Of a stretch of DNA of 64,000 bases, positions 27,492 through 45,154 are shown in pieces; the first letter of the stretch is position 1, and every line of letters begins with the position of its first letter. The stretch is from contig JAKLEB010000001.1 in NCBI GenBank assembly GCA_022711765.1, forward strand, positions 1,186 to 65,185, in the 5' to 3' direction. The notes beneath the pieces are model-generated. The model saw only the letters and a list, made by a program, of their open reading frames with translations. It ran no database searches and had not been told where the DNA came from. A program made the translations under genes and the position numbers. The DNA comes from Candidatus Krumholzibacteriota bacterium (GTDB lineage: Bacteria; Krumholzibacteriota; Krumholzibacteriia; LZORAL124-64-63).

Positions 27492-27520
27492 TAGACTCAT
27501 TTCTTTATCTATGGTAAGAT
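27492..27520 (+). promoter_or_regulatory. AT-rich sigma70-like promoter TAGACT-N17-TAAGAT for giant gene copy 1
   Basis: AT-rich island (AAAAAACTCCTCAATTAGACTCATTTCTTTATCTATGGTAAGATCA) in otherwise 70% GC DNA. The -35 hexamer is at 27492-27497 and the -10 at 27515-27520, with a 17-nt spacer. Confidence 0.5.
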
Positions 27521-27609
27521 CATCTCCTTGGTTTGCCCAGGAACGGTCGTCACCGGGCGATCGCGTCTACGGCTCGATCCGCATGCACGCGCGACCCAGG
27601 AGGATAGGC

Positions 27610-30600: not shown

Positions 30601-32406
30601 GCCAACCCCGACCTGCTGCAGGGGATCGCGTACTTCGAGGACCGCGGACTCATGCAGCTGACGCCGTACTGGTACAAGGTCACCGCCGTGGACACGTTCC
30701 TGCAGGAGAGCGATTTCTCGCCGGTCGTGACCCAGGGGACCATGCCGCCCGAGCTCACCAATTTCCCGCTGGAGTTCCAGTTGCAGACGAGCGGCCACAT
30801 CGCCGTGGGGGACATCGACGGGGACGGGCGGTTGGAGATCGTCCTCGCGTCGGACGAGGTCTACGCGTGGAACGAGGACGGCAGCGAGCTCGTCGACGGG
30901 GACAACGACGCCCAGACCACCGGTCCTTTGACGGGAGTCGACGGTCAGTTCGAGCCGTCCGGCGTGGTCCTGGCGGACCTCGACGGTGAGCCGGGGCTGG
31001 AGATCATCGCGAGCGAGCGCCTGAACGCGCGCCAGATCCACGTCTTCAGGGCGGACGGCAGCGAGCTTCCGGGCTGGCCGCGGACCATGCAGAACTCCTG
31101 GAACTGGGCGACGCCGGCGGTCGGCGACGTCGACGGCGACGGCGACAACGAGGTCGTGGTCAACGATACGGCCGGGCGCACGTTCGTCTGGCACCATACC
31201 GGAGTCGAGCTGCGCGACGGGGACAGCAACCCCGCCACCAACGGCGTGTTCGTCGATCGCGACGAGAGCTGGGGCTACTCGTCGCCCGCGCTCTTCGACC
31301 TGGACGGGGACGGCGCCTGCGAGATCATCTTCGGCACGCGCTACTTCACGCCGGGCAACGCGCTGCTCGCGTATCGTTACAACGGCAGTCAGGCGCAGAA
31401 CTTCCCGTTCACGACGGGCAGCGCGCAGATCATCTGCGCGCCGGCGATCGCCGATCTCGATCGGGACGGCGACAAGGAGATCGTCTTCTTCACGACCGCT
31501 CACTACCTCTACGCGATCCACCACAACGCGGCGGCGTACCCGGGCTTCCCGGTCTTCTTCAACACGAACTGGGACGACTCTCCGGGCCCCAGCCCGGCGG
31601 TCGGCAATTTCGACGGCGACAACGACCTGGAGATCCTCTGGCCGGTCAACGGCGGTTCGTTCCGCCTGGACCTGATCGCGGTCGACACGGGCCGCTTCGA
31701 CGGCACGACCGGCGACATCATGGCGGGCTGGCCGGTGCAGCTGCCGGCGAACTCGGAGGGCAGTCCGGTCGTGGGCGACATCAACGGCGACGGCCTCTCG
31801 GATGTCGTGCAGCCCGTCGGCAGCGACGAGACCGAAACGCCGGACCTCATCTTCGCCGTCGACCACGCGGGAGAGGGGATCCCGGGCTTCCCGATCCGGC
31901 TCGACGGGATCCCGCGCTCGACGCCGGTGATCTGCGACCTGGATCTCGACGGCGACGTGGAGGTCGTGTACGGGTCGTGGGACCGGTTGCTCCACGCCTG
32001 GGACCTGCCGGCGCCCTTCGACGCCGCGAACGTGCCGTGGCCGACCTTCCACGGCAATCCGCAGCGGACCGGCGTCGCCGTGCAGGTGAGCATCACCGGC
32101 GTCGACGATCCGGTGGTGCCGAGCATCTTCACCGTCATGCCGCCGCACCCCAATCCGTTCAATCCGGTCACCACTCTGCGCCTCTACGTGGCGCCGGGAC
32201 CGGACCGCCGGCTCGACGTGGCGGTGTACGACCTGCGGGGCCGCCGGATCCGGCAGCTGCACGCGGGCGACGCCGCGGCGGGGTGGCACGACCTGACCTG
32301 GGACGGGCGCGACGACACGGGTCGCGGCCAGGCCAGCGGCGTGTACTTCGTCCGCGCGCAGCAGGCGGCAGAGTCGCGGACCTTCAAGCTGACGCTCGTG
32401 AAATAG
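27610..32406 (+). CDS. Giant secreted protein, copy 1: gingipain-like C25 cysteine peptidase + CARDB/Ig-like + FN3 + 7x FG-GAP beta-propeller + T9SS C-terminal sorting domain
   Basis: 1598 aa from the ATG at 27610, after an AGGAGG ribosome-binding site. Signal peptide MSRRMVVTPLIVIAVSLSSLVLAAQG. The C25-like catalytic region shows His (QFGHGHYFNMSVGD) and Cys (LLFAVNCASGAFD) in a gingipain-like arrangement. NGNGNGVAEAGETISL CARDB-like repeats are present. An FN3 domain is present (LRWDPVGG...YHVYRAA...YWYKVTAVD). There are seven FG-GAP-type calcium-binding repeats (GDIDGDGRLEIV, GDVDGDGDNEVVV, FDLDGDGACEIIFG, ADLDRDGDKEIVF, GNFDGDNDLEILW, GDINGDGLSDVV, CDLDLDGDVEVVYG). The C-terminus (PNPFNPVTTLRLYV...VAVYDLRGRRIRQL...WDGRDDTGRGQASGVYFVRAQ...RTFKLTLVK) matches the T9SS type-A sorting domain. 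Confidence 0.8.
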   Translation: MSRRMVVTPLIVIAVSLSSLVLAAQGPVLYEGTLEPDQFAWTELADGSYRLDLGGGRSLGVTDLADLPAIDLLLLVPADLAIAGVEVEPLAIRSIVAPGRLALAGALASSAGDLLPQRDLEPAGGMFPPSWGAFGGVHSWRGYRLLAVTVHPARLRDGDPGSPARLDVLERFAIRAVSTGAPAASPPLARERLVAGERSRLERLLRPLVANPEAVTSYQREDGAALDKSGAPFLPTPNPSLEGSGIRYLIVTSAALAPEFQRLADHRTRQGLPALVVTREWISANFRRGVDFQETLRMFLQDAYAKWGVEYLLLGGDTEIVPTRTIRSNFYPYGGHTDIPTDTYYAALDGNWGADGDGWLGEPYVTEGNPGDNADLAPELAVARAPVRSLLGAQQFVDKVLGYEATPAGALWANRILFAAEVLFPSPWHPGEPITLDGAQYAQTLIDTIIESCSTMSYVRMYETAQLYPRDAPLTRAALIDSLNTGHYGHVDQFGHGHYFNMSVGDANFTVSDADALHNPHHFLLFAVNCASGAFDFSCLMERFVENPDGGAIVSVSAAREAFPSNSFGYQSTFYGAMVCDGVLRVPDAFNVARLQFIGNTSRNTVDRWTQLNAAIIGDPATGIWCGPPLAPSITAPANLAVGEQTVQVQVVAGGRPAVGADVCLVKDGETYAWAVTDPAGQASLTIVPQTAGTVTLTVSGANLVRTTRTIPVAGSATYVAMTGFGIGDQSPNGNGNGVAEAGETISLALQLQDLGGGGATGLNVTLTSDDPQLVVLDGTASAGNIAPGGSTTNLDPLVVKPQTIMRDGLRIAMRIVVTANGGGSWVSNGLLEVRVPEPEVARLVVDDSVYGDGDGVAESNERLVLRPYVKNYGSGRLDQLVAQVTNAAAGVTVHSAFAFYANVDLLEEETYQSGELSVTLANIGQLQPCRVDFQDNYGRTFTQPLEFNEPAAPGLPAADATIASDAIALRWDPVGGAATLGYHVYRAAAEAGPFSRANPDLLQGIAYFEDRGLMQLTPYWYKVTAVDTFLQESDFSPVVTQGTMPPELTNFPLEFQLQTSGHIAVGDIDGDGRLEIVLASDEVYAWNEDGSELVDGDNDAQTTGPLTGVDGQFEPSGVVLADLDGEPGLEIIASERLNARQIHVFRADGSELPGWPRTMQNSWNWATPAVGDVDGDGDNEVVVNDTAGRTFVWHHTGVELRDGDSNPATNGVFVDRDESWGYSSPALFDLDGDGACEIIFGTRYFTPGNALLAYRYNGSQAQNFPFTTGSAQIICAPAIADLDRDGDKEIVFFTTAHYLYAIHHNAAAYPGFPVFFNTNWDDSPGPSPAVGNFDGDNDLEILWPVNGGSFRLDLIAVDTGRFDGTTGDIMAGWPVQLPANSEGSPVVGDINGDGLSDVVQPVGSDETETPDLIFAVDHAGEGIPGFPIRLDGIPRSTPVICDLDLDGDVEVVYGSWDRLLHAWDLPAPFDAANVPWPTFHGNPQRTGVAVQVSITGVDDPVVPSIFTVMPPHPNPFNPVTTLRLYVAPGPDRRLDVAVYDLRGRRIRQLHAGDAAAGWHDLTWDGRDDTGRGQASGVYFVRAQQAAESRTFKLTLVK

Positions 32407-32666: not shown

Positions 32667-32695
32667 TTGACTCGTTTCTTTATTTGTGGTAAGAT
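32667..32695 (+). promoter_or_regulatory. AT-rich sigma70-like promoter TTGACT-N17-TAAGAT for giant gene copy 2
   Basis: -35 TTGACT at 32667-32672, 17-nt spacer, -10 TAAGAT at 32690-32695. It is homologous to the copy-1 promoter but with a better -35 hexamer. Confidence 0.5.
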
Positions 32696-32784
32696 CATCT
32701 CCTTGGTTTGCCCAGGAACGGTCGTCACCGGGCGATCGCGTCTACGGCTCGATCCGCATGCACGCGCGACCCAGGAGGATAGGC

Positions 32785-35700
32785 ATGAGCCGCCGCATGG
32801 TCGTAACCCCGCTCATCGTCATCGCCGTCTCGCTCAGTTCCCTGGTCCTGGCCGCGCAGGGTCCTGTGCTCTACGAAGGAACGTTGGAACCGGATCAGTT
32901 CGCCTGGACCGAGCTGGCCGATGGGTCGTACCGGCTCGACCTCGGCGGTGGTCGCTCGCTCGGGGTCACGGACCTGGCGGACCTGCCGGCGATCGACCTC
33001 CTGTTGCTCGTGCCCGCCGACCTGGCGATCGCCGGCGTCGAGGTCGAACCGCTCGCGATCCGCTCGATCGTTGCGCCCGGCCGCCTGGCGCTGGCGGGCG
33101 CCCTGGCGTCGAGCGCCGGCGACCTCCTGCCGCAGCGTGACCTGGAGCCGGCCGGTGGCATGTTCCCGCCGAGCTGGGGCGCCTTCGGCGGCGTTCACAG
33201 CTGGCGGGGCTACCGGTTGCTCGCCGTGACCGTGCACCCGGCGCGCCTGCGCGACGGCGATCCCGGGTCGCCCGCGCGCCTGGACGTGCTGGAGCGGTTC
33301 GCGATCCGCGCGGTCTCGACCGGCGCGCCCGCCGCGAGCCCGCCCCTCGCTCGCGAGCGTCTCGTCGCCGGGGAGCGCAGCCGCCTGGAACGGCTGTTGC
33401 GCCCGCTCGTGGCGAATCCGGAGGCGGTGACGAGCTATCAGCGCGAGGACGGGGCTGCGCTCGACAAGTCGGGCGCTCCCTTCCTGCCCACGCCCAACCC
33501 CAGCCTCGAAGGAAGCGGGATCCGGTACCTGATCGTGACGTCGGCGGCGCTGGCGCCCGAGTTCCAGCGCCTGGCGGACCACCGCACGCGCCAGGGATTG
33601 CCGGCGCTCGTGGTGACGCGCGAGTGGATCTCCGCGAATTTCCGTCGCGGCGTCGATTTCCAGGAGACCCTGAGGATGTTCCTGCAGGACGCGTACGCCA
33701 AGTGGGGCGTGGAGTACCTGCTGCTCGGCGGGGACACGGAGATCGTGCCGACCCGCACGATCCGGAGCAACTTCTATCCGTACGGCGGGCACACGGACAT
33801 CCCGACCGACACGTACTACGCCGCGCTCGATGGGAACTGGGGCGCCGACGGCGACGGCTGGCTCGGCGAGCCGTACGTCACGGAGGGCAACCCCGGCGAC
33901 AACGCCGATCTCGCGCCGGAACTCGCCGTGGCGCGGGCGCCGGTGCGCAGCCTCCTCGGCGCCCAGCAGTTCGTGGACAAGGTGCTGGGCTACGAGGCGA
34001 CGCCGGCCGGCGCGCTCTGGGCGAACCGGATCCTCTTCGCCGCGGAGGTGCTCTTCCCGTCGCCCTGGCATCCGGGCGAACCCATCACGCTCGATGGCGC
34101 CCAGTACGCGCAGACCTTGATCGACACCATCATCGAGTCGTGCTCGACCATGTCCTATGTGCGCATGTACGAGACCGCGCAGCTCTATCCGCGCGACGCT
34201 CCGCTGACCCGCGCGGCCCTGATCGACTCGCTCAACACCGGCCACTACGGCCACGTGGACCAGTTCGGCCACGGGCACTACTTCAACATGTCGGTCGGCG
34301 ACGCGAACTTCACGGTGTCCGACGCGGACGCTCTCCACAATCCGCATCACTTCCTGCTCTTCGCCGTGAACTGCGCGTCGGGCGCGTTCGATTTCTCGTG
34401 CTTGATGGAGCGGTTCGTCGAGAATCCCGACGGCGGCGCGATCGTCTCGGTCAGCGCCGCGCGTGAAGCATTCCCCTCCAATTCCTTCGGCTACCAGTCG
34501 ACGTTCTACGGCGCCATGGTCTGCGACGGCGTGCTCCGCGTCCCCGACGCGTTCAACGTGGCGCGCCTGCAGTTCATCGGCAACACGTCGCGCAACACGG
34601 TCGACCGCTGGACGCAGCTCAATGCGGCGATCATCGGCGATCCCGCGACCGGCATCTGGTGCGGTCCGCCGCTGGCGCCCTCGATCACGGCGCCCGCCAA
34701 TCTCGCCGTTGGCGAGCAGACGGTGCAGGTCCAGGTCGTGGCGGGCGGTCGGCCGGCGGTCGGCGCCGACGTCTGTCTGGTCAAGGACGGCGAGACGTAC
34801 GCGTGGGCCGTCACCGATCCGGCGGGTCAGGCGTCGCTGACGATCGTCCCGCAGACGGCGGGCACGGTCACCTTGACGGTTTCGGGCGCCAACCTCGTGC
34901 GGACGACCCGCACGATCCCGGTCGCCGGCAGCGCGACGTACGTGGCCATGACCGGATTCGGGATCGGCGACCAGTCGCCCAACGGCAACGGCAACGGCGT
35001 CGCCGAGGCCGGCGAGACGATTTCGCTGGCGCTGCAGTTGCAGGATCTCGGCGGCGGCGGCGCGACCGGGCTGAATGTCACGTTGACCAGCGACGATCCG
35101 CAGCTCGTGGTGCTCGACGGCACGGCGAGCGCGGGCAACATCGCGCCGGGCGGATCGACCACCAACCTGGACCCGCTCGTGGTCAAGCCGCAGACCATCA
35201 TGCGTGACGGTTTGCGCATCGCGATGCGGATCGTCGTGACGGCGAACGGCGGCGGCAGCTGGGTCAGCAACGGCCTGCTCGAGGTGCGGGTGCCCGAGCC
35301 GGAGGTCGCGCGCCTCGTCGTCGACGACTCCGTCTACGGCGACGGCGACGGCGTGGCGGAGAGCAACGAACGCCTGGTCCTGCGTCCGTACGTGAAGAAC
35401 TACGGCAGCGGACGACTCGACCAGCTCGTCGCGCAGGTGACGAACGCGGCGGCGGGGGTCACGGTGCACAGCGCCTTCGCGTTCTACGCCAACGTCGACC
35501 TGCTGGAGGAGGAGACCTACCAGTCGGGCGAGCTCTCGGTGACCCTGGCCAACATCGGGCAGCTCCAGCCGTGCCGCGTCGATTTCCAGGACAACTACGG
35601 GCGCACCTTCACCCAGCCGCTCGAATTCAACGAGCCGGCGGCTCCCGGCCTGCCGGCCGCCGACGCGACGATCGCGTCGGACGCGATCGCGCTGCGCTGG

Positions 35701-37581
35701 GACCCGGTCGGCGGGGCGGCGACCCTGGGCTACCACGTCTATCGCGCGGCGGCCGAGGCGGGGCCGTTCAGCCGGGCCAACCCCGACCTGCTGCAGGGGA
35801 TCGCGTACTTCGAGGACCGCGGACTCATGCAGCTGACGCCGTACTGGTACAAGGTCACCGCCGTGGACACGTTCCTGCAGGAGAGCGATTTCTCGCCGGT
35901 CGTGACCCAGGGGACCATGCCGCCCGAGCTCACCAATTTCCCGCTGGAGTTCCAGTTGCAGACGAGCGGCCACATCGCCGTGGGGGACATCGACGGGGAC
36001 GGGCGGTTGGAGATCGTCCTCGCGTCGGACGAGGTCTACGCGTGGAACGAGGACGGCAGCGAGCTCGTCGACGGGGACAACGACGCCCAGACCACCGGTC
36101 CTTTGACGGGAGTCGACGGTCAGTTCGAGCCGTCCGGCGTGGTCCTGGCGGACCTCGACGGTGAGCCGGGGCTGGAGATCATCGCGAGCGAGCGCCTGAA
36201 CGCGCGCCAGATCCACGTCTTCAGGGCGGACGGCAGCGAGCTTCCGGGCTGGCCGCGGACCATGCAGAACTCCTGGAACTGGGCGACGCCGGCGGTCGGC
36301 GACGTCGACGGCGACGGCGACAACGAGGTCGTGGTCAACGATACGGCCGGGCGCACGTTCGTCTGGCACCATACCGGAGTCGAGCTGCGCGACGGGGACA
36401 GCAACCCCGCCACCAACGGCGTGTTCGTCGATCGCGACGAGAGCTGGGGCTACTCGTCGCCCGCGCTCTTCGACCTGGACGGGGACGGCGCCTGCGAGAT
36501 CATCTTCGGCACGCGCTACTTCACGCCGGGCAACGCGCTGCTCGCGTATCGTTACAACGGCAGTCAGGCGCAGAACTTCCCGTTCACGACGGGCAGCGCG
36601 CAGATCATCTGCGCGCCGGCGATCGCCGATCTCGATCGGGACGGCGACAAGGAGATCGTCTTCTTCACGACCGCTCACTACCTCTACGCGATCCACCACA
36701 ACGCGGCGGCGTACCCGGGCTTCCCGGTCTTCTTCAACACGAACTGGGACGACTCTCCGGGCCCCAGCCCGGCGGTCGGCAATTTCGACGGCGACAACGA
36801 CCTGGAGATCCTCTGGCCGGTCAACGGCGGTTCGTTCCGCCTGGACCTGATCGCGGTCGACACGGGCCGCTTCGACGGCACGACCGGCGACATCATGGCG
36901 GGCTGGCCGGTGCAGCTGCCGGCGAACTCGGAGGGCAGTCCGGTCGTGGGCGACATCAACGGCGACGGCCTCTCGGATGTCGTGCAGCCCGTCGGCAGCG
37001 ACGAGACCGAAACGCCGGACCTCATCTTCGCCGTCGACCACGCGGGAGAGGGGATCCCGGGCTTCCCGATCCGGCTCGACGGGATCCCGCGCTCGACGCC
37101 GGTGATCTGCGACCTGGATCTCGACGGCGACGTGGAGGTCGTGTACGGGTCGTGGGACCGGTTGCTCCACGCCTGGGACCTGCCGGCGCCCTTCGACGCC
37201 GCGAACGTGCCGTGGCCGACCTTCCACGGCAATCCGCAGCGGACCGGCGTCGCCGTGCAGGTGAGCATCACCGGCGTCGACGATCCGGTGGTGCCGAGCA
37301 TCTTCACCGTCATGCCGCCGCACCCCAATCCGTTCAATCCGGTCACCACTCTGCGCCTCTACGTGGCGCCGGGACCGGACCGCCGGCTCGACGTGGCGGT
37401 GTACGACCTGCGGGGCCGCCGGATCCGGCAGCTGCACGCGGGCGACGCCGCGGCGGGGTGGCACGACCTGACCTGGGACGGGCGCGACGACACGGGTCGC
37501 GGCCAGGCCAGCGGCGTGTACTTCGTCCGTGCGCAGCAGGCGGCAGAGTCGCGGACGTTCAAGCTGACGCTCGTGAAATAG
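32785..37581 (+). CDS. Giant secreted protein, copy 2 (identical protein): C25 peptidase + CARDB + FN3 + FG-GAP propeller + T9SS CTD
   Basis: 1598 aa. The protein is identical to copy 1. At the DNA level there are only two synonymous differences near the 3' end (CGC to CGT, ACC to ACG). Confidence 0.8.
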   Translation: MSRRMVVTPLIVIAVSLSSLVLAAQGPVLYEGTLEPDQFAWTELADGSYRLDLGGGRSLGVTDLADLPAIDLLLLVPADLAIAGVEVEPLAIRSIVAPGRLALAGALASSAGDLLPQRDLEPAGGMFPPSWGAFGGVHSWRGYRLLAVTVHPARLRDGDPGSPARLDVLERFAIRAVSTGAPAASPPLARERLVAGERSRLERLLRPLVANPEAVTSYQREDGAALDKSGAPFLPTPNPSLEGSGIRYLIVTSAALAPEFQRLADHRTRQGLPALVVTREWISANFRRGVDFQETLRMFLQDAYAKWGVEYLLLGGDTEIVPTRTIRSNFYPYGGHTDIPTDTYYAALDGNWGADGDGWLGEPYVTEGNPGDNADLAPELAVARAPVRSLLGAQQFVDKVLGYEATPAGALWANRILFAAEVLFPSPWHPGEPITLDGAQYAQTLIDTIIESCSTMSYVRMYETAQLYPRDAPLTRAALIDSLNTGHYGHVDQFGHGHYFNMSVGDANFTVSDADALHNPHHFLLFAVNCASGAFDFSCLMERFVENPDGGAIVSVSAAREAFPSNSFGYQSTFYGAMVCDGVLRVPDAFNVARLQFIGNTSRNTVDRWTQLNAAIIGDPATGIWCGPPLAPSITAPANLAVGEQTVQVQVVAGGRPAVGADVCLVKDGETYAWAVTDPAGQASLTIVPQTAGTVTLTVSGANLVRTTRTIPVAGSATYVAMTGFGIGDQSPNGNGNGVAEAGETISLALQLQDLGGGGATGLNVTLTSDDPQLVVLDGTASAGNIAPGGSTTNLDPLVVKPQTIMRDGLRIAMRIVVTANGGGSWVSNGLLEVRVPEPEVARLVVDDSVYGDGDGVAESNERLVLRPYVKNYGSGRLDQLVAQVTNAAAGVTVHSAFAFYANVDLLEEETYQSGELSVTLANIGQLQPCRVDFQDNYGRTFTQPLEFNEPAAPGLPAADATIASDAIALRWDPVGGAATLGYHVYRAAAEAGPFSRANPDLLQGIAYFEDRGLMQLTPYWYKVTAVDTFLQESDFSPVVTQGTMPPELTNFPLEFQLQTSGHIAVGDIDGDGRLEIVLASDEVYAWNEDGSELVDGDNDAQTTGPLTGVDGQFEPSGVVLADLDGEPGLEIIASERLNARQIHVFRADGSELPGWPRTMQNSWNWATPAVGDVDGDGDNEVVVNDTAGRTFVWHHTGVELRDGDSNPATNGVFVDRDESWGYSSPALFDLDGDGACEIIFGTRYFTPGNALLAYRYNGSQAQNFPFTTGSAQIICAPAIADLDRDGDKEIVFFTTAHYLYAIHHNAAAYPGFPVFFNTNWDDSPGPSPAVGNFDGDNDLEILWPVNGGSFRLDLIAVDTGRFDGTTGDIMAGWPVQLPANSEGSPVVGDINGDGLSDVVQPVGSDETETPDLIFAVDHAGEGIPGFPIRLDGIPRSTPVICDLDLDGDVEVVYGSWDRLLHAWDLPAPFDAANVPWPTFHGNPQRTGVAVQVSITGVDDPVVPSIFTVMPPHPNPFNPVTTLRLYVAPGPDRRLDVAVYDLRGRRIRQLHAGDAAAGWHDLTWDGRDDTGRGQASGVYFVRAQQAAESRTFKLTLVK

Positions 37582-37730: not shown

Positions 37731-39371
37731 ATGAGATCGATCGCGCCGGGCGACCGCTCAGGGTGGCTGGTCGCCGTCGTTTTGGGAATGGTGGCGGGCT
37801 GCCAGGGGGATGCGCCGCAGCCTGCGCCTCCGGCGGACGCGACCGCCGCGCCGTCGCGCGGCGGAACGGTCGTCGTGGCGCTGCCCGACGAGCCGGATGT
37901 CCTCAATTCCCTGATCCGCACGTCCGCAGTCGCCGGTTCGGTGCTCTCGCTGCTGCAGGCGGGGCTCGCGGAGATGGGTGAGGATCTGCAGTGGTACCCG
38001 ATGATCGCCGAGCGCTGGGAGGTCGCGCCGGACAGCCTCGCGATCACCTACCACCTGCGCCCGTGGACCTGGGAGGACGGGACGCCGCTGACCGCCGACG
38101 ACGTGCGGGCGAGCTACGAGCTCCTGACCGATCCGCGCATCGCCAGCCCGCGCGCCGATCAGCTGCGACCCGTTGTCAGGGTGACGACGCCGGACCTCGC
38201 GACGGTCCGGTATGAATTCGCGGCGCCCCAGGCGCAGGCAGTCCAGACGACCGTCCACTCGCTGTTGCCGGCTCACCGCGTGCGCTCGCTGGATCCGAGC
38301 GCCGTCGCGACCTGGCCGTTGAATCGATCGCCGCTCGCGTCCGGCCCATTCCGGCTCGAATCGTGGGAACCGGGACGCCAGCTCGTGCTGGCGCCGAATC
38401 CACACTATCCTCTGGCGGCTCCCTGGCTCGATCGCGTCATCCTGCGCATCGTGCCCGACGAGACGGCGCGCGTCATGGCGCTGGAGACCGGCGAGATCGA
38501 TCTCGTCTTCGACGTGCCGGCGACGGCCGCGGCGCGCCTGGCGACGGATCCGCAGCTGCGGGTCGTGGAAGTCCCGGGTCGCGTCTTCGCCTTCCTGATG
38601 TGGAACGTGCGCCGACCGGTCCTGCGGGATCCGGCGGTCCGTCGCGCACTGTCCCTGGCCCTGGATCGCGAGCGGTTCGTGGCCGCCCTGACGGGCGGTT
38701 TCGGCGCGCCGGCCGCGTCCTACTTGCCGCCGGCGCTCTGGAACCACCACCGCGGGCTGGTGCCCGATCCCTGCCGGCCCGATTCGGCCGCCGCCCTGCT
38801 CGCCGCGGCGGGGTGGGTGGACCACGACGGCGACGGCGTGCGGGAACGATCGGGCGTGCCGTTGCGCCTGGAGGTGATCTTCCGGGGCGGCGACACCGCG
38901 CGGGAAAACGGCGTTGCGCTCGTGCGCCGGTATCTGACCGCGGTCGGCGTCGATGTCTCGTTGCGTGCGCTGGAGCTGGCGACGGCGCTCGAGTTCCTGC
39001 GCGCGGGTCGTTTCGACGCGTATTTCGGAGAATACCAGGCCAACCTCTACGCGGACCCCTCGCCGCTCGTGCGGTCCGGCGCGAGCGATCGCTTCAATTT
39101 CGGCGGCTACGCGAACGCGCGCGTCGATTCCCTGCTCGACCGCGCGCTCGCGGAGCCGGACCGGACGCGAAGTCTGCCCATCTGGTACGCGGTGCAGGAA
39201 GCGCTGGTCGCCGACCCGCCGGCCGCGGTGCTGTATTATCCGCGCCAGCTGGTCGCCTACAATCGACGTGTGCGCGACGTGCGCCCACACCTGCTCTCGC
39301 CGCTCAACAATCTCGCGGAGTGGTGGATCGCACCCGCGGACCGCCGCTGGGCGGATTCCAGTTCGCGGTAA
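37731..39371 (+). CDS. ABC-transporter solute-binding protein family 5 (oligopeptide/nickel-type), lipoprotein, orphan
   Basis: 546 aa from the ATG at 37731, after a GAGGAG ribosome-binding site. Lipoprotein signal with lipobox (VAVVLGMVAGC). SBP_bac_5-like throughout. No permease or ATPase genes are adjacent. Confidence 0.75.
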   Translation: MRSIAPGDRSGWLVAVVLGMVAGCQGDAPQPAPPADATAAPSRGGTVVVALPDEPDVLNSLIRTSAVAGSVLSLLQAGLAEMGEDLQWYPMIAERWEVAPDSLAITYHLRPWTWEDGTPLTADDVRASYELLTDPRIASPRADQLRPVVRVTTPDLATVRYEFAAPQAQAVQTTVHSLLPAHRVRSLDPSAVATWPLNRSPLASGPFRLESWEPGRQLVLAPNPHYPLAAPWLDRVILRIVPDETARVMALETGEIDLVFDVPATAAARLATDPQLRVVEVPGRVFAFLMWNVRRPVLRDPAVRRALSLALDRERFVAALTGGFGAPAASYLPPALWNHHRGLVPDPCRPDSAAALLAAAGWVDHDGDGVRERSGVPLRLEVIFRGGDTARENGVALVRRYLTAVGVDVSLRALELATALEFLRAGRFDAYFGEYQANLYADPSPLVRSGASDRFNFGGYANARVDSLLDRALAEPDRTRSLPIWYAVQEALVADPPAAVLYYPRQLVAYNRRVRDVRPHLLSPLNNLAEWWIAPADRRWADSSSR

Positions 39372-39379
39372 TATTACTG
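39366..39379. promoter_or_regulatory. Palindromic operator-like site CGGTAATATTACTG (core GTAATATTAC), upstream copy
   Basis: The 10-bp core is a perfect palindrome and AT-rich in GC-rich DNA. An identical 14-mer recurs at 39423..39436. The two bracket a TTGACA-N17-TATCGT promoter. Confidence 0.5.
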
Positions 39380-39385
39380 CCGTTG

Positions 39386-39414
39386 TTGACACTTCCGGAC
39401 GATCGGATTATCGT
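39386..39414 (+). promoter_or_regulatory. Sigma70-like promoter TTGACA-N17-TATCGT for the H1-like gene
   Basis: TTGACA at 39386-39391 and TATCGT at 39409-39414. An AAGGAG ribosome-binding site lies at 39461 and the ATG at 39472. Confidence 0.45.
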
Positions 39415-39422
39415 GCGCGGGA

Positions 39423-39436
39423 CGGTAATATTACTG
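39423..39436. promoter_or_regulatory. Palindromic operator-like site CGGTAATATTACTG, downstream copy
   Basis: Second identical 14-mer. It is positioned just downstream of the -10 element. Confidence 0.5.
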
Positions 39437-39471
39437 GTCACCGCGCGAGCCGTGCGAGAAAAGGAGTCTCC

Positions 39472-40053
39472 ATGCCGACGAATCTGACCCGATTGCTCTC
39501 CAGACTGAGCCGCGCCGACCTACACAGGCTGCTCGTGGCCAAGGAGGAGATCGAGCACCTGGAGGAGCGGCGCACCGAGCTCGCGAGCGAACTGGCCGAG
39601 GTCGACCAGAAGCTGGACCGCCTCATCGGACGGGTGGCAGGCACCCGCCGCGGCCCGGGCCGGCCCGCCGGCCGGAGGTCCGGCAGGAAGGTCGGCCGGA
39701 GAACCGTCAAGAAGGCCGCGAAGAAGACCGCCAGACGAGCTGCCAGGACGACCGCCGGGAAGGCGGCGAAGACGGCGGCCAGGAAGACCGCGACGAAGAC
39801 CGCGCGGAAGGGCGGCGAGCGCCCCGCGCCGCGCGGCCGGCGGACCGGCGGGCAGCGGGCCACTCTCGAGAACGTGGTGATCGGCGTCCTCGCGAACAAA
39901 GGGGAGCCGATGAGCTTCAAGGCGATCCTCGAGACGATCACGGCCGGCAAGCTGTTCCGCAGCCGCAGCCGCGACTTCTCGAACGTCCTGAGACGGACCC
40001 TGTCCACGAGTCGTCGCGTGAAGCGGGTCTCGCGCGGGGTGTACGGGACCTGA
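39472..40053 (+). CDS. Histone H1-like / lysine-alanine-rich nucleoid-associated protein with C-terminal winged-helix (HARE-HTH / linker-histone-like) domain
   Basis: 193 aa. N-terminal coiled coil (EEIEHLEERRTELASELAEVDQKLDRL). A central low-complexity basic tract (KKAAKKTARRAARTTAGKAAKTAARKTATKTARK) follows. The C-terminal 60-aa globular domain (GEPMSFKAILETITAGKLFRS...VKRVSRGVYGT) is winged-helix-like. Confidence 0.6.
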   Translation: MPTNLTRLLSRLSRADLHRLLVAKEEIEHLEERRTELASELAEVDQKLDRLIGRVAGTRRGPGRPAGRRSGRKVGRRTVKKAAKKTARRAARTTAGKAAKTAARKTATKTARKGGERPAPRGRRTGGQRATLENVVIGVLANKGEPMSFKAILETITAGKLFRSRSRDFSNVLRRTLSTSRRVKRVSRGVYGT

Positions 40054-40060
40054 GCCGCCC

Positions 40061-40405
40061 TCAACCCGGCGGCCAGCCGAGCGCGCGGCCGCCGAGCACG
40101 TGCAGATGGAGGTGCGGCACGGTCTGGCAAGCGTCGCGGCCGCAGTTGATGACGAACCGGTAACCCGTTTCGGCGAGACCGAGCTTGGCCGCCACCTGGG
40201 CCGCCGTCACCTGCAGCCGGCCGACGAGATCGGCGTCGGCGCCGGTGAGGTCGGTGAGCGCGGCGACGTGCCGGCGCGGGATCACCAGGAAATGGACCGG
40301 CGCCTGCGGATTCAAGTCGCGGAACGCGACGAAGTCGGTGTCGGCGTGGACCTCCCGGCAGGGGATGTCCCCGGCGGCGATGCGGCAGAAGATGCAGTCG
40401 GCCAT
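40061..40405 (-). CDS. HIT-family protein (Hint-like)
   Basis: 114 aa on the minus strand from MADCIFCRIAAGDIP. The histidine triad HLHLHVLGG is present. GGAGG ribosome-binding site. The track ORF is longer through an upstream GTG. Confidence 0.75.
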   Translation of the reverse strand: MADCIFCRIAAGDIPCREVHADTDFVAFRDLNPQAPVHFLVIPRRHVAALTDLTGADADLVGRLQVTAAQVAAKLGLAETGYRFVINCGRDACQTVPHLHLHVLGGRALGWPPG

Positions 40406-41512: not shown

Positions 41513-42118
41513 ATGTCGCTGACGCGTCGCCAAGCGGAGATCCTGGACTTCATCCGCGCCTTCTCGGCCGAGAACCACTATGCGCCGACTCTCCAGGAGA
41601 TCGGCGACCGGTTCGGACTGTCCTCGGTCGCCACGGTGCACAAGCACGTCAGCCAGCTGGTGGGCAAGGGATACCTCAAACGGGAGCGCCGCAACGCCAG
41701 CCGGGACCTCGCCGTCGTGACCGGCGGTCGGGACGCGGCGGCGGTCCTGATCCCGCTGCTCGGCACGGTGGCGGCCGGTATGCCGATCGAGGCCCTGCCG
41801 GAGGCGGAAGAGATCGCCCTGCCCGAGCAGTGGCTGGGGCGCCGGCGAACGTTCGCTCTCCGCGTGCGCGGCGACTCGATGATCGAGGAGCAGATCCGCG
41901 ACGGGGACGTCGTCGTCGTCGAGGAACGCGAGACCGCGCGCAACGGCGAGACCGTGATCGCCCTCGTCGACGGCGAGAACGCCACGGTCAAGCAATACCA
42001 CCGGCAAGGCGCGTTGATCCGCCTCGTGCCCGCGAATCCCCGGCTCTCGCCCCTGGAGTACGACGAGGCGAGGGTCCGGATCCAGGGCGTCGTCATCGGC
42101 GTCCTGCGCCGCTTCTGA
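41513..42118 (+). CDS. lexA: LexA repressor
   Basis: 201 aa. The N-terminal winged helix-turn-helix is LTRRQAEILDFIRAF...PTLQEIGDRFGLSSVATVHKHVSQLVGKGYL. The cleavage site AAG lies in VAAGMP. The catalytic Ser is in RGDSMIE and the catalytic Lys in TVKQY. Confidence 0.9.
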   Translation: MSLTRRQAEILDFIRAFSAENHYAPTLQEIGDRFGLSSVATVHKHVSQLVGKGYLKRERRNASRDLAVVTGGRDAAAVLIPLLGTVAAGMPIEALPEAEEIALPEQWLGRRRTFALRVRGDSMIEEQIRDGDVVVVEERETARNGETVIALVDGENATVKQYHRQGALIRLVPANPRLSPLEYDEARVRIQGVVIGVLRRF

Positions 42119-42223
42119 CGCCACCCTGGACCGTCCCCGCTGCCGGTCGCGCCGGAGGATCCGTGTCCGGCGGCCGCGGCCATCGGCGGCGCGCGGCTTA
42201 CCCGCCGGCGGGGATGCCCCATG

Positions 42224-42249
42224 TTGACGGTCGCCTGATCGACCGTTAA
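42224..42249. promoter_or_regulatory. Inverted repeat TTGACGGTCG-N6-CGACCGTTAA upstream of hsp20-lon (candidate heat-shock operator)
   Basis: 10-bp arms with 9 of 10 positions complementary, 56 nt upstream of the hsp20 ATG. It overlaps a TTGACG -35-like hexamer. It does not match CIRCE or HAIR consensus sequences. Confidence 0.4.
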
Positions 42250-42305
42250 GGTTGCCGAGGCGCCCGTTTTCGGCGCGCGACGGCAAGACCCGGCGGAGGC
42301 GGACG

Positions 42306-42740
42306 ATGGCGCGACCCGGCCGCAAGAGCGAACTCGAAGAGATCTTCGAGATCCTGGTGACCTCGTACAGCCAGAAGGGGGGCGCCGTACCGGCCGAGGG
42401 CGACCTCTGCTGGCGCCCCGCGACCGACGTCTACGAGACCGAGGCCAGCCTCGTGATCCAGATGGACCTCGCTGGCATGGATCCTGCCCAGATCGAGGTG
42501 ATCTGCGACGGCCAGTGCCTGGTGGTCCGCGGCATCCGGCCGGAGTCCTCGCAACCCGGGCGCAAGCACTTTCACACGATGGAGATCAACGTCGGCCCCT
42601 TCGTGAGGCGGGTCCCGCTTTTGGTCGACATCGATCCGACGAGCGCCACCGCCCGGTACCGGGGCGGTTTTCTCTACGTCACGTTCCGCAAGGGTGAACC
42701 GCAGCCGGTGCAACGGCGCCAGATCGAGGTGGATCGGTGA
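42306..42740 (+). CDS. Small heat-shock protein, Hsp20/alpha-crystallin family
   Basis: 144 aa from the ATG at 42306. The alpha-crystallin domain runs from WRPATDVYETEASLVIQMDLAGMDPAQIEV to FLYVTFRK. The N-terminus of the track ORF is Arg-rich junk. Confidence 0.8.
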   Translation: MARPGRKSELEEIFEILVTSYSQKGGAVPAEGDLCWRPATDVYETEASLVIQMDLAGMDPAQIEVICDGQCLVVRGIRPESSQPGRKHFHTMEINVGPFVRRVPLLVDIDPTSATARYRGGFLYVTFRKGEPQPVQRRQIEVDR

Positions 42741-45154
42741 TGCGGCGGAGGAGCCAGCCCAGGTCCGAAGGCGTGATCGGCAGTCCGCAGGAGCAATCGA
42801 CCCAGGGCGTGGTCTTGCCGGCGACGTTGCCGATCCTGCCGATCAGCGAGGCCGTCATCTTCCCGTTCATGATGGTGCCGCTCGTTCTGAGCGATGCCAA
42901 CCTGATCAAGCTGGCGGACGAGTGTCTGGCGGGCGACAAGATCCTCGGCGCCTTCGCCCAGCGCCCCGACCCGCCCGAGGGAGAGCCGGACCATGCCGAC
43001 GCGGCGCCGACCAGCGACGCCGAGCAGATCTACCAGGTCGGCACCGCCGTGCGGATCCAGAAGATGCTGCGCTTCCCGGACGGCAGCATGCGGCTGCTCG
43101 GCCAGGGGATCGCCCGCTGCCGGATCGAGGCCATCCTTCAGGAGGAGCCCTACCTGCGTGCGGCGATTTCCGCCGTGCACGAGGAGACGGCCGACGACTC
43201 GCAGACCCTCGCCTACATGCGCGGCGTCGCGAACAATTTCCTGAAGATCATCGACGCGAGCGAGCACCTGTCCGACGAGCTGAAGGTCGTCGTGATGAAC
43301 ATCGACGATCCCGGCCGGCTCGCGGACCTCATCGCGACGAATCTCGACATCGACGTCGCGGAGAAGCAGGCCGTGCTCGAGGAGGCCTCGCCGCGCAAGC
43401 GGCTGCAGCTGCTCTCGAAGGTCGTCATTCGCGAGCTCGACGTGCTGGAACTCGGTCAGCAGTTGCAGACGAAGGTGCGCAAGTCCATCGACAAGGACCA
43501 GCGCGAATATTACCTGCGCCAGCAGTTGAAGGCGATCCGCCGCGAGCTGGGAGACGAGGACGAAGGCTCCGTCGAGCTGGAGGAAATCCGGGAACGCCTG
43601 AACCAGATCGCGTTGCCGGAGAAGGTGGGGGCGGCGGCCGAGCGCGAGTACGACCGGCTCTCGCGGATGTCGCCGGGCGCGAGCGAGTACACGGTCAGCA
43701 AGACCTATCTCGAGTGGATCCTCGATCTGCCGTGGCTCGTCTCGAGCGAGGACAAGCTGGACCTCGGCCGCGCCGAGGAGATCCTCGAGCGGGACCATTA
43801 CGGTCTCGAGGACGTCAAGGAACGGATCCTCGAGTTCCTCTCGGTGCGCAAGCTCAAAGGCGACCACCGCGGGCCGATCCTCTGCCTCCAGGGGCCGCCC
43901 GGGGTCGGCAAGACGTCGCTGGGCCGCAGCATCGCGGAGGCGGTCGGTCGCAAGTTCTTCCGCTTCTCGCTCGGCGGCATGCGCGACGAGGCGGAGATCC
44001 GCGGGCACCGGCGCACCTACGTCGGCGCGATGCCGGGCCGCATCATCGCCGGCATCCGGGATTGCGGGACCAATAATCCGCTCATCATGCTCGACGAGAT
44101 CGACAAGCTGGGCCAGGACTTCCGCGGCGATCCGGCGAGCGCGCTGCTCGAGGTCCTCGATCCGGAACAGAACCACGGATTCACCGATCACTACCTGGCG
44201 CTGGCGTTCGACCTCTCGAAGGTGATGTTCATCACGACCGCGAACATGCTCGACACGATTCCGCGTCCGCTGCTCGACCGCATGGAAACGATCCAGCTGC
44301 CGGGCTACACCAACCTCGAGAAGCTGCAGATCGCGAAGCGCTACCTCGTGCCGCGGCAGATCGCCGAGAACGGCCTCAATCGCCGGAAGATCCGGTTCAC
44401 CGATTCCGGAATCCTGCACATCATCGAGGACCACACGCGCGAAGCCGGCGTCCGGGAGCTCGAGCGCAAGATCGGCGGCGTCTGCCGCAAGGCCGCGCGC
44501 AAGGTGGCGCGCGGTGGGCGCCGGCCGCACGCGATCACTGCCAAGAACCTCGCCGACTACCTGGGCCCGCCGACGTACACCGGGGACAGCCTGCGCCGCC
44601 GCGCGCTGGTCGGCGTGGTCACCGGCCTGGCCTGGACTCCGGTCGGCGGCAAGATCCTGAGCATCGAGGGGCTCAGCCTGCCCGGCGGCGGCGGCAACCT
44701 GAAACTCACCGGCCAGCTCGGCAGCGTGATGCAGGAATCGGCATCGGCCGCCTTCAGCTACCTGCGCAGCCGGTTCGGCGGCGACGAGAAGCACGCGGAC
44801 TTCTTCTCGCGCGACGTTCACATCCACGTGCCGGCCGGGGCAATCCCGAAGGACGGTCCGTCCGCCGGCATCGCGATGGCGACGGTCCTGCTGTCGCTGC
44901 TGCTCGCCAAGCCGGTGGACCGCCGCACCGCGATGACGGGCGAGATCACCTTGACCGGCGAGGTGCTGCCGATCGGCGGGCTCCTGGAGAAAGTCCTGGC
45001 GGCCCATCGCGTCGGGATCCGGCGAGTCATCATCCCGGACGCCAATATCACCGATCTGGATCACATCCCGGAGGAAGTCCGCGCTGCGGTGGAATTCTTG
45101 CCGGTGGCGCACGTGGACCAGGTGTGGCAAGCTGTGTTCCCGGGAGCGTTGTAG
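42740..45154 (+). CDS. lon: ATP-dependent Lon protease
   Basis: About 804 aa. The ATG at 42740 overlaps the hsp20 stop as TGATG; an alternative GTG lies at 42737. LON N-domain. AAA+ Walker A GPPGVGKTS. The C-terminal protease domain carries the catalytic Ser in PKDGPSAGIAMATVL. Confidence 0.95.
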   Translation: MRRRSQPRSEGVIGSPQEQSTQGVVLPATLPILPISEAVIFPFMMVPLVLSDANLIKLADECLAGDKILGAFAQRPDPPEGEPDHADAAPTSDAEQIYQVGTAVRIQKMLRFPDGSMRLLGQGIARCRIEAILQEEPYLRAAISAVHEETADDSQTLAYMRGVANNFLKIIDASEHLSDELKVVVMNIDDPGRLADLIATNLDIDVAEKQAVLEEASPRKRLQLLSKVVIRELDVLELGQQLQTKVRKSIDKDQREYYLRQQLKAIRRELGDEDEGSVELEEIRERLNQIALPEKVGAAAEREYDRLSRMSPGASEYTVSKTYLEWILDLPWLVSSEDKLDLGRAEEILERDHYGLEDVKERILEFLSVRKLKGDHRGPILCLQGPPGVGKTSLGRSIAEAVGRKFFRFSLGGMRDEAEIRGHRRTYVGAMPGRIIAGIRDCGTNNPLIMLDEIDKLGQDFRGDPASALLEVLDPEQNHGFTDHYLALAFDLSKVMFITTANMLDTIPRPLLDRMETIQLPGYTNLEKLQIAKRYLVPRQIAENGLNRRKIRFTDSGILHIIEDHTREAGVRELERKIGGVCRKAARKVARGGRRPHAITAKNLADYLGPPTYTGDSLRRRALVGVVTGLAWTPVGGKILSIEGLSLPGGGGNLKLTGQLGSVMQESASAAFSYLRSRFGGDEKHADFFSRDVHIHVPAGAIPKDGPSAGIAMATVLLSLLLAKPVDRRTAMTGEITLTGEVLPIGGLLEKVLAAHRVGIRRVIIPDANITDLDHIPEEVRAAVEFLPVAHVDQVWQAVFPGAL

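What the first reader, a model, noticed from the sequence alone, without database searches (positions are those of the whole stretch)
39472..40053. Bacterial histone-H1-like protein: coiled coil + KAAKKTARR basic repeats + winged-helix globular domain
Low-complexity Lys/Ala/Arg/Thr-rich repeats reminiscent of eukaryotic linker-histone tails are known from Hc1, AlgP and BpH1. Here they are combined with an N-terminal coiled coil and a compact C-terminal domain (GEPMSFKAILETI...VKRVSRGVYGT) resembling HARE-HTH or linker-histone winged helices. The protein is likely a nucleoid-structuring factor. Its promoter carries the paired palindromes described in the previous finding.
Basis: partly seen in the sequence, partly recalled or inferred. 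Interest (0 to 1): 0.5.

Follow-up and report, generated by a model that had tools for sequence, protein, structure and literature searches.

The report
Coiled-coil, basic-tail, winged-helix DNA-binding protein
This is a real, conserved gene of the uncultured phylum Krumholzibacteriota that joins a coiled coil, a histone-H1-like basic tail and a HARE-HTH winged helix; it is most likely a self-regulating chromosome-organising protein, but no member of the family has been tested.

Summary
ORF 39472-40053 (+) encodes a 193-aa, pI 12 protein. It has a heptad-periodic N-terminal helix (aa 1-59), a disordered Lys/Arg/Ala/Thr/Gly linker (aa 60-127, net +25, built on 12/24-nt DNA repeats) and a confidently modelled C-terminal winged helix (aa 128-193).

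The gene sits in a conserved neighbourhood (SBP_bac_5 - gene - HIT - PfkB - LexA) in 52 of 59 species-level loci, mostly labelled Krumholzibacteriota. Shorter coiled-coil + HARE-HTH relatives occur elsewhere, for example in Planctomycetota.

A near-consensus promoter is bracketed by two exact GTAATATTAC palindromes. That motif recurs at fixed promoter positions in orthologues and is almost confined to this promoter.

Best reading: an H-NS/Rok-style oligomerising nucleoid protein that represses its own promoter. The function is inferred, not shown. I rate it a new variant of a known kind, of moderate interest.

The parts
39366..39379 (.). Upstream copy of the palindrome CGGTAATATTACTG (perfect 10-bp core GTAATATTAC at 39368-39377). 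It ends 8 bp before the -35 hexamer, at roughly -45 to -55.
   Evidence: Exact direct repeat D2 and inverted repeat I2. The 13-mer search found 6 matches at up to 3 mismatches against 0.46 expected by chance; four of them are the two palindromic sites read on both strands. Orthologues carry a copy 41-48 nt upstream of the end of the -10 hexamer.
39386..39414 (+). Sigma-70-type promoter: TTGACA (39386-39391), 17-nt spacer, TATCGT (39409-39414).
   Evidence: This is the only promoter-like site in 39250-40200, matching 10 of 12 positions; shuffles give a mean of 0.1. TTGAC-N15-19-TAnnnT is present in 44 of 52 orthologous upstream regions, 16-18 nt in every locus found.
39423..39436 (.). Downstream copy of CGGTAATATTACTG (core 39425-39434). 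It starts 10 nt after the -10 hexamer, over or just after the expected transcription start. It is embedded in a looser 38-bp palindrome, 39411-39448.
   Evidence: In orthologues the core starts 4 nt (13 loci) to 11 nt after the -10 hexamer.
39461..39466 (+). Shine-Dalgarno sequence AAGGAG, 5 nt before the ATG.
   Evidence: Read from the sequence. An SD-like motif is present in 47 of 52 orthologous loci.
39472..39648 (+). Codons 1-59: N-terminal heptad-repeat helix, the putative dimerisation or oligomerisation coiled coil.
   Evidence: AF2 helices 3-11 and 14-59. Conserved hydrophobic positions have 3.5-residue periodicity. PDB profile hits are all coiled coils. L30, L37 and L51 are invariant.
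39649..39852 (+). Codons 60-127: disordered linker rich in Lys, Arg, Ala, Thr and Gly (net +25), built on 12/24-nt repeats at 39703-39810.
   Evidence: pLDDT below 50, composition, tandem repeats. Linker length in the family runs from 15 to 134 aa, median 68, with K+R at 46%.
39853..40053 (+). Codons 128-193 plus stop: C-terminal HARE-HTH winged helix with invariant F169, N171, V172, R174, R175, T176, S178, T179, S180 (helix 3) and R188, G189, Y191 (wing).

Best explanation
The gene encodes a small, extremely basic DNA-architectural (nucleoid-associated) protein. It is built on the modular plan of H-NS, Lsr2, MvaT and Rok: an N-terminal coiled coil that makes dimers or higher oligomers, a flexible basic linker, and a C-terminal DNA-binding domain.

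Proposed mechanism (all inferred):
- The DNA-binding domain is a HARE-HTH winged helix. Its invariant helix-3 and wing residues (N171, R174, R175, T176; R188-G-x-Y191) contact DNA.
- The H1-tail-like Lys/Arg/Ala linker adds non-specific, charge-neutralising contacts with the DNA backbone.
- Oligomerisation lets the protein bridge or coat DNA.
- In these roughly 65-71% GC genomes its preferred sites are likely AT-rich stretches with TpA steps. The best candidate is the palindrome GTAATATTAC, which sits upstream of the -35 hexamer and over the transcription start of its own strong promoter. Binding there would repress its own transcription, by occlusion or by bridging the two sites 57 bp apart.

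Shown here: the gene, the three-part anatomy, the fold, HARE-HTH membership at family level, conservation and synteny, and the promoter with its gene-specific conserved palindromes.

Inferred: DNA binding, oligomeric state, AT preference, that the palindromes are bound by this protein, and a genome-wide structuring role.
For: Anatomy:
- Coiled coil, disordered +25 linker and high-confidence winged helix. Whole-protein pI is 12.
- HARE-HTH matches in 21 of 30 members, best E 1e-11. Rok winged-helix model matches in 15 of 30, best 4.9e-5, all sub-threshold.

Conservation:
- The two end domains are conserved while linker length varies from 15 to 134 aa. This is typical of a tether.
- It is a vertically inherited core gene. 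HIT, PfkB, LexA and SBP_bac_5 neighbours are conserved in 52, 44, 34 and 45 of 59 loci.
- Expression signals are near consensus: TTGACA-17-TAnnnT in 44 of 52 loci and an SD in 47 of 52.

Palindrome:
- 18 of 23 matches to GTAATATTAC (up to 1 mismatch) in 516 kb of related loci fall in the 160 nt upstream of this gene.
- They fall at two fixed promoter positions.
- AATATT is enriched 53-fold and TAATATT 137-fold there.
- In the 64-kb window the exact motif occurs only at this promoter.

Literature: Rok is also a coiled-coil + linker + winged-helix protein. It binds AT-rich TpA-step DNA in the minor groove through an Asn at the start of helix 3 and an Arg in the wing (PMC6212790). hhalign places this family's R-G-x-Y on Rok's R174-G-Q-Y.
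Against: - There is no experimental or expression data for any member.
- The window protein's own HARE-HTH score is below Pfam's cut-off.
- The best-studied bacterial HARE-HTH, RNA polymerase delta, binds RNA polymerase rather than DNA.
- The near-total invariance of helix 3 together with a conserved specific palindrome fits a sequence-specific regulator as well as a global nucleoid protein.
- About 24 of 52 orthologous promoters lack a match to the full palindrome within 2 mismatches.
- Distant coiled-coil + HARE-HTH relatives show no such element.
- The palindromes could belong to another regulator.
Confidence: 0.55

Rival explanations
1. It is a dedicated, sequence-specific, autoregulated transcription factor. 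A coiled-coil dimer of winged helices recognises GTAATATTAC-type operators at its own promoter and a small regulon. The basic linker only adds affinity, and the protein does not shape the nucleoid globally.
For: Helix 3 (NVLRRTLSTS) is invariant across all 120 listed homologues. The 10-bp palindrome is equally well conserved at operator-like positions, over the transcription start and upstream of the -35 hexamer. The motif is rare elsewhere: 5 of 23 matches in 516 kb.
Against: A pI of 12 and a +25 (family median +30) disordered tail of variable length are unusual for specific regulators and typical of chromatin proteins. Half-sites centred 5 bp apart cannot hold two winged helices on one DNA face in the usual way. 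No candidate target operon is linked to the gene, and its neighbours are unrelated housekeeping genes.
Confidence: 0.2
2. It is an RNA-polymerase-associated factor analogous to the delta subunit (RpoE) of Firmicutes. The HARE-HTH docks on RNA polymerase. The tail, basic here rather than acidic as in delta, modulates promoter DNA or RNA contacts.
Against: The hhalign match covers only 29 residues. The tail has the opposite charge and lies on the other side of the domain. Delta has no coiled coil. The winged-helix domain itself carries net +10, as expected for a nucleic-acid binder.
Confidence: 0.08
3. It is a tether or chaperone for another polyanion (RNA or ribosomes, or polyphosphate granules), in the manner of AlgP or PhaF. 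In those proteins Lys/Ala repeats attach a helical domain to polyP or PHA granules and to DNA.
Against: There is no linkage to ppk, pha or ribosomal genes. The conserved globular domain belongs to a DNA-associated winged-helix family. The promoter palindromes point to DNA-level feedback.
Confidence: 0.07
4. It reads modified DNA. HARE-HTH domains have been proposed, and for ASXL1 reported, to recognise modified bases such as 6mA. The AATATT-centred palindrome could then be a methylation-sensitive switch controlling the gene.
For: HARE-HTH was proposed as a reader of DNA modification. The isolated ASXL1 HARE-HTH pulled down 6mA-containing DNA (PMC6591016; discussed critically in PMC11037411). 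The operator core AATATT is a 6-bp palindrome of the kind that methyltransferases target.
Against: No methyltransferase or restriction gene lies nearby in any of the loci examined. AATATT is not depleted in the flanking DNA relative to base composition: 0.09 per kb observed against about 0.03 per kb by my own estimate.
Confidence: 0.05

Closest known systems
Rok of Bacillus subtilis (xenogeneic silencer and nucleoid-associated protein; PDB 5ZUX, 5ZUZ)
   Same: Almost the same size (191 against 193 aa; Rok's length is from my own knowledge) and the same order of parts: N-terminal coiled-coil oligomerisation region, linker with a basic stretch, C-terminal winged helix. Pfam's WH_Rok model gives weak hits to 15 of 30 family members. 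The wing motif R-G-x-Y aligns with Rok's R174-G-Q-Y. Rok prefers AT-rich DNA with TpA steps (PMC6212790). The conserved element here, GTAATATTAC, has three TpA steps.
H-NS, MvaT and Lsr2 (DNA-bridging nucleoid proteins)
   Same: The same functional plan: oligomerisation domain, flexible linker, C-terminal DNA-binding domain. Autoregulation and AT-rich targets are known for those families (established knowledge; reviews listed).
   Different: The DNA-binding domains are unrelated (AT-hook-like or AT-pincer folds against a winged helix), and there is no sequence similarity. The analogy is architectural only.
Eukaryotic linker histones H1/H5 (Pfam Linker_histone, H15)
   Different: No sequence-level relationship was found. 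No member matched Pfam Linker_histone at the thresholds used: E<=10 for the window protein, E<=0.01 for 30 homologues, E<=1 for 8 distant relatives. hhalign to GH5 gives probability 0.2%. In the window protein the tail precedes the domain. H1 has no N-terminal coiled coil. There are no nucleosomes to bind.
HARE-HTH domain family (PF05066): RNA polymerase delta subunit, ASXL, HB1, restriction-enzyme N-termini
   Same: This is the sequence family of the C-terminal domain. Delta is the top Foldseek hit.
   Different: To my knowledge, none of the characterised members combines the domain with a coiled coil and a basic tail. Delta has an acidic tail and binds RNA polymerase. The window protein itself scores below Pfam's cut-off.
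Bacterial 'histone H1-like' Lys/Ala-repeat proteins: Chlamydia Hc1/Hc2, Pseudomonas AlgP, Bordetella BpH1, PhaF
   Same: The low-complexity Lys/Ala/Thr/Arg repeats. Pfam HC2 hits in 5 of 30 members, best E 2.2e-10.
   Different: The resemblance is compositional. Those proteins have no HARE-HTH winged helix (own knowledge), and the conserved parts of this family are its two flanking domains, not the repeats.

Membership tests
HARE-HTH (Pfam PF05066) | A significant match to the family HMM over the whole domain of about 70 residues. | tested here: met
   The window protein scores E 9e-4 and 20 bits (cut-off 25.9), over residues 133-190 and model positions 4-65 of 71. Of its homologues, 21 of 30 match at E<=0.01, best 1e-11. 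Many database relatives carry a precomputed PF05066 hit. The feature is met for the family; the window protein is sub-threshold on its own.
HARE-HTH (Pfam PF05066) | A winged helix-turn-helix fold resembling solved HARE-HTH domains (RNA polymerase delta N-terminal domain). | tested here: met
Linker histone H1/H5 (Pfam PF00538, H15 domain) | Sequence-level match to the H15 globular-domain family. | tested here: not met
   No member matched Linker_histone at the thresholds used: E<=10 for the window protein, E<=0.01 for 30 homologues, E<=1 for 8 distant relatives. hhalign of the family profile against chicken GH5 gives probability 0.2%.
Linker histone H1/H5 | Winged-helix fold of GH1/GH5 type. 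| tested here: met
Linker histone H1/H5 | Tripartite order: short N-terminal tail, globular domain, long Lys-rich C-terminal tail. | tested here: not met
   Here the order is coiled coil, basic region, winged helix. Some distant relatives (P0209, P0226, P0189) do have a Lys-rich tail after the winged helix.
Rok (Pfam WH_Rok PF23159) | Significant match to the Rok winged-helix model or to the Rok C-terminal sequence. | tested here: not met
Rok / H-NS-like bridging proteins (functional class) | N-terminal oligomerisation domain, flexible linker and C-terminal DNA-binding domain. | tested here: met
   This is predicted architecture only; oligomerisation was not tested.
Rok / H-NS-like bridging proteins (functional class) | DNA bridging or stiffening, preference for AT-rich DNA, and silencing of AT-rich genes. 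| not testable with these tools
   The only indirect hint is the conserved AT-rich palindromes at the gene's own promoter.
Chlamydial Hc2 / AlgP-type Lys-Ala repeat proteins | Homology beyond composition in the repeat region. | tested here: inconclusive
   HC2 HMM hits occur in 5 of 30 members and are confined to the low-complexity linker. The linker is unalignable and variable in length within the family.

The most novel reading that the evidence does not exclude
This is a fifth, independently evolved class of H-NS-like chromatin protein and xenogeneic silencer, after H-NS, MvaT, Lsr2 and Rok, serving the high-GC phylum Krumholzibacteriota. It is also the closest bacterial counterpart yet of a linker histone: a forkhead/H1-type winged helix fused to an H1-tail-like Lys/Ala-rich disordered region. 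It would nucleate at AT-rich TpA palindromes, its own promoter included, and bridge or condense DNA through its coiled coil. A stronger, much less likely version is that such bacterial HARE-HTH plus basic-tail proteins are evolutionarily related to the ancestor of eukaryotic H1.
Probability: 0.25. Interest if true: 0.7.

Novelty: new variant of a known kind. Interest (0 to 1): 0.5.

Why it matters
Every well-studied bacterial DNA-bridging or silencing protein (H-NS, MvaT, Lsr2, Rok) comes from a cultivated lineage. How the many uncultured phyla organise and silence DNA is largely unknown.

This family offers a concrete, testable candidate for one whole phylum, and shorter coiled-coil + HARE-HTH relatives exist elsewhere, for example in Planctomycetota. 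It would also give the HARE-HTH domain a chromatin-architectural role, beyond its known occurrence in RNA polymerase delta, ASXL and restriction enzymes.

It also bears on the origin of linker histones. One hypothesis (Kasinsky et al. 2001, as summarised in PMC8015243) holds that the Lys-rich tail of H1 resembles bacterial proteins, while the winged helix was gained or lost independently among eukaryotic lineages. Here both kinds of module occur in one bacterial protein, most likely by convergence.

The conserved promoter palindrome gives an immediate handle for binding experiments.

Tried and rejected
1. Sequence search of PDB with the full-length and C-terminal profiles. It returned only generic coiled coils and non-significant RNA polymerase delta hits, with no solved homologue.

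2. The idea that the palindromes are LexA boxes, because lexA lies two genes downstream in conserved synteny. The upstream region of lexA in the window has no such motif, so I rejected it.

3. A scan of metagenome contigs for the exact 14-mer CGGTAATATTACTG, to find further sites in this genome. They look like chance matches, so the scan was uninformative.

4. A test for co-variation between protein and operator in distant relatives. The upstream regions of four coiled-coil + HARE-HTH genes from other lineages show no AT-rich palindrome. The operator is therefore specific to the Krumholzibacteriota clade, and no co-variation argument could be made.

5. The AFDB50 fold library was unavailable.

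6. The NCBIfam hit to a siphovirus major capsid protein (E 4.9e-5, 22.7 bits against a 75-bit cut-off, covering the coil and linker). I dismissed it as a coiled-coil or low-complexity artefact, given the conserved chromosomal synteny.

7. Aravind & Iyer 2012, the paper defining HARE-HTH, could not be read. Whether it already lists this architecture is unchecked. A search for 'HARE-HTH' together with 'nucleoid' found no paper.

8. Resemblance of the palindrome to Fur-family 7-1-7 boxes such as the Zur box TCGTAATNATTACGA (own knowledge). The spacing here is 7-0-7, one base shorter. I judged this unlikely but could not exclude it.

Full report
**The feature.** The window is 71% GC, so long ORFs occur in every frame. 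The ORF in question is nevertheless a real gene. Its ATG at 39472 lies 5 nt after AAGGAG (39461-39466), and its stop is at 40051-40053. The mechanical extension of the frame back to 38953 is not conserved: homologues begin at the same MPxxL... start. An identical protein is on record as a hypothetical protein of a 'Candidatus Krumholzibacteria bacterium' MAG, on contigs of 2.06-2.16 Mb.

**Anatomy.** AlphaFold2, run with a 30-sequence alignment, gives three parts.
- *Coiled coil.* Helices span residues 3-11 and 14-59, with block pLDDT of about 70-96. Hydrophobic positions conserved in the family (9, 12, 17, 20/21, 27, 30, 37, 41, 44, 48, 51) are spaced 3-4 apart, with the Fourier maximum at 3.5 residues, which is a heptad repeat. 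A profile search of PDB returns only coiled coils for this part.
- *Basic linker.* Residues 60-127 are disordered, with pLDDT below 50. They hold 38% Lys+Arg, 21% Ala, 13% Thr and 16% Gly, with net charge +25. The whole protein has pI 12. The linker is encoded by imperfect 12/24-nt tandem repeats at 39703-39810.
- *Winged helix.* Residues 128-193 fold as helix, helix, helix, strand, strand, with pLDDT about 95. Modelled alone with 46 sequences, the domain reaches pLDDT 90 and pTM 0.77.

**What the C-terminal domain is.**
- Pfam places it in HARE-HTH. The window protein itself is sub-threshold (E 9e-4, 20 bits against a 25.9-bit cut-off). Of 30 homologues, 21 match at E<=0.01, best 1e-11.
- The Rok winged-helix model gives weaker hits in 15 of 30 homologues, best 4.9e-5.
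- The best Foldseek hit is S. aureus delta.
- At sequence level there is no link to linker histones. No member matched Pfam Linker_histone at the thresholds used: E<=10 for the window protein, E<=0.01 for the 30 homologues, E<=1 for 8 distant relatives. hhalign against GH5 gives probability 0.2%.
- hhalign against the B. subtilis delta N-terminal domain gives probability 79% over helix 1 only.
- hhalign against Rok-C produces a full-length but non-significant alignment. It places the family's R-G-x-Y on Rok's R174-G-Q-Y.

It is HARE-HTH by sequence and forkhead/H1-like by fold.

**Family and distribution.**
- 184 proteins match at E<=1e-3. All 120 listed carry the invariant NVLRRTLSTS (helix 3) and RGxY (wing).
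- Linker length ranges from 15 to 134 residues, median 68. A few variants have two winged helices.
- An exhaustive HMM search of 1.84 billion cluster representatives finds only 298 clusters at E<=1e-3, of which about 85 form the core family.
- More distant members take three forms. Some are 125-150-aa proteins with the same plan but a short basic linker; one is labelled Planctomycetota. Some have coil, winged helix and a C-terminal Lys-rich tail. Some are large proteins with 4-7 tandem winged helices. Most of those scanned have HARE-HTH as their best or near-best Pfam match.
- In GTDB species representatives the core motif is found at 59 loci. By my count of the labels, about 20 are labelled Krumholzibacteri-, 19 'uncultured Fibrobacteraceae', 15 'bacterium', and five carry other names.
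- Neighbours are conserved in most of these loci: the convergent HIT gene in 52, PfkB in 44, LexA in 34 and the upstream SBP_bac_5 gene in 45.

This is a vertically inherited core gene, not mobile DNA.

**Promoter and palindromes.**
- The only sigma-70-like site in the region is TTGACA (39386-39391), a 17-nt spacer, then TATCGT (39409-39414).
- It is bracketed by two exact copies of CGGTAATATTACTG, at 39366-39379 and 39423-39436. Each has the perfect 10-bp palindromic core GTAATATTAC, and the two are 57 bp apart.
- Of 52 non-redundant orthologous upstream regions, 44 have TTGAC-N15-19-TAnnnT (16-18 nt in every locus found) and 47 have an SD.
- Matches to the palindrome fall at two fixed places. 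One starts 4-11 nt after the -10 hexamer, exactly 4 nt in 13 loci. The other lies 41-48 nt upstream of the end of the -10 hexamer, just upstream of the -35 hexamer.
- Across 516 kb of these loci, 18 of 23 matches with up to 1 mismatch lie in the 160 nt before this gene.
- AATATT is 53-fold and TAATATT 137-fold denser there than in the flanks.
- lexA's own upstream region lacks the motif. Four distant relatives lack any comparable element.

The element is therefore a conserved, gene-specific operator-like site over the transcription start. Which protein binds it is not shown.

**Mechanism (inference).** The three-part plan is that of the bridging nucleoid proteins H-NS, MvaT, Lsr2 and especially Rok. 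Rok is a protein of about 191 aa (own knowledge) with a coiled coil, a linker and a winged helix. It reads AT-rich, TpA-rich DNA in the minor groove through Asn154 and Thr156 at the start of helix 3 and Arg174 in the wing (PMC6212790). In this family an invariant Asn171 lies near the start of helix 3 and an invariant Arg188 lies in the wing.

I therefore propose an oligomerising, DNA-coating or DNA-bridging protein. Its basic tail supplies non-specific affinity, and its winged helix prefers AT-rich sites. The two palindromes at its own promoter would then give negative autoregulation, as is common for abundant nucleoid proteins.

The main rival is a specific autoregulated transcription factor; the invariant helix 3 and the precise palindrome fit that equally well. 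Lesser rivals are a delta-like RNA-polymerase partner, a tether for polyphosphate or RNA, and a reader of modified DNA. The last is a role proposed for HARE-HTH domains, though it is disputed.

**Novelty and verdict.** No member is characterised. Sources name them 'hypothetical protein' or 'HTH domain-containing protein'. A search for 'HARE-HTH' together with 'nucleoid' found no paper. The defining HARE-HTH paper could not be read.

The protein is not a member of the H1, Rok or Hc1/Hc2 families. It is a HARE-HTH protein with a predicted H-NS/Rok-like architecture and an H1-like tail. That makes it a new variant of a known kind. Interest is moderate (0.5): it is a well-defined, testable candidate chromatin protein for an uncultured phylum, and it bears on the H1-origin discussion (PMC8015243), but every functional statement here is inference.

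Noticed in passing
window 27512-32354 and 32687-37529: A 4.84-kb exact tandem direct duplication, offset 5175 bp. The two 1631-aa ORFs (27511-32406 and 32686-37581) are 99.94% identical, with 3 differences at the ends. They encode a Peptidase_C25 / FG-GAP / FlgD_ig protein, as named for the copy nearest the gene in public gene calls. This could be a real recent duplication or an assembly artefact.
   Followed up: partly
window 41513-45154: A conserved stress-gene cluster lies just downstream: lexA (41513-42118), an HSP20 gene (about 42306-42740) and lon (about 42740-45154). lexA keeps its position two genes from the finding in 34 of 59 related loci. Its upstream region has no copy of the GTAATATTAC palindrome.
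   Followed up: partly
window 39411-39448: The downstream palindrome sits inside a longer imperfect inverted repeat, TCGTGCGCGGGACGGTAATA / TATTACTGGTCACCGCGCGA (20-nt arms, 70% complementary). It could extend the operator or form a 5'-leader hairpin.
   Followed up: no
P0012, P0014, P0121; loci L013, L016, L049: Some family members (280-305 aa) carry two copies of the winged helix separated by a second basic linker. One MAG (CAYFKR01) has both a two-domain copy (L016) and a second single-domain paralogue in a different context (L055).
   Followed up: partly
P0184 (1034 aa), P0193 (627 aa), P0200, P0208: Distant relatives are large proteins made of 4-7 tandem HARE-HTH-like winged helices. P0193 has hydrophobic, possibly membrane-spanning N-terminal segments. 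Their function is unknown.
   Followed up: no
L187 1863-3420: In a Planctomycetota MAG, the short coiled-coil + HARE-HTH relative P0276 lies directly downstream of, and on the same strand as, a parB gene. This is a single-case hint of a chromosome-related role.
   Followed up: no
loci L007-L064: Many MAGs labelled 'uncultured Fibrobacteraceae', 'Gemmatimonadales', 'Gemmatimonas sp.' or 'Fibrobacter sp.' share the Krumholzibacteriota gene order around this gene. Their NCBI names are probably wrong or too coarse.
   Followed up: partly
window 23784-23796 and 43502-43514: These are the only other near-matches in the window to the 13-mer GGTAATATTACTG, each with 3 mismatches. They are probably chance; 43502 lies inside lon.
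   Followed up: no
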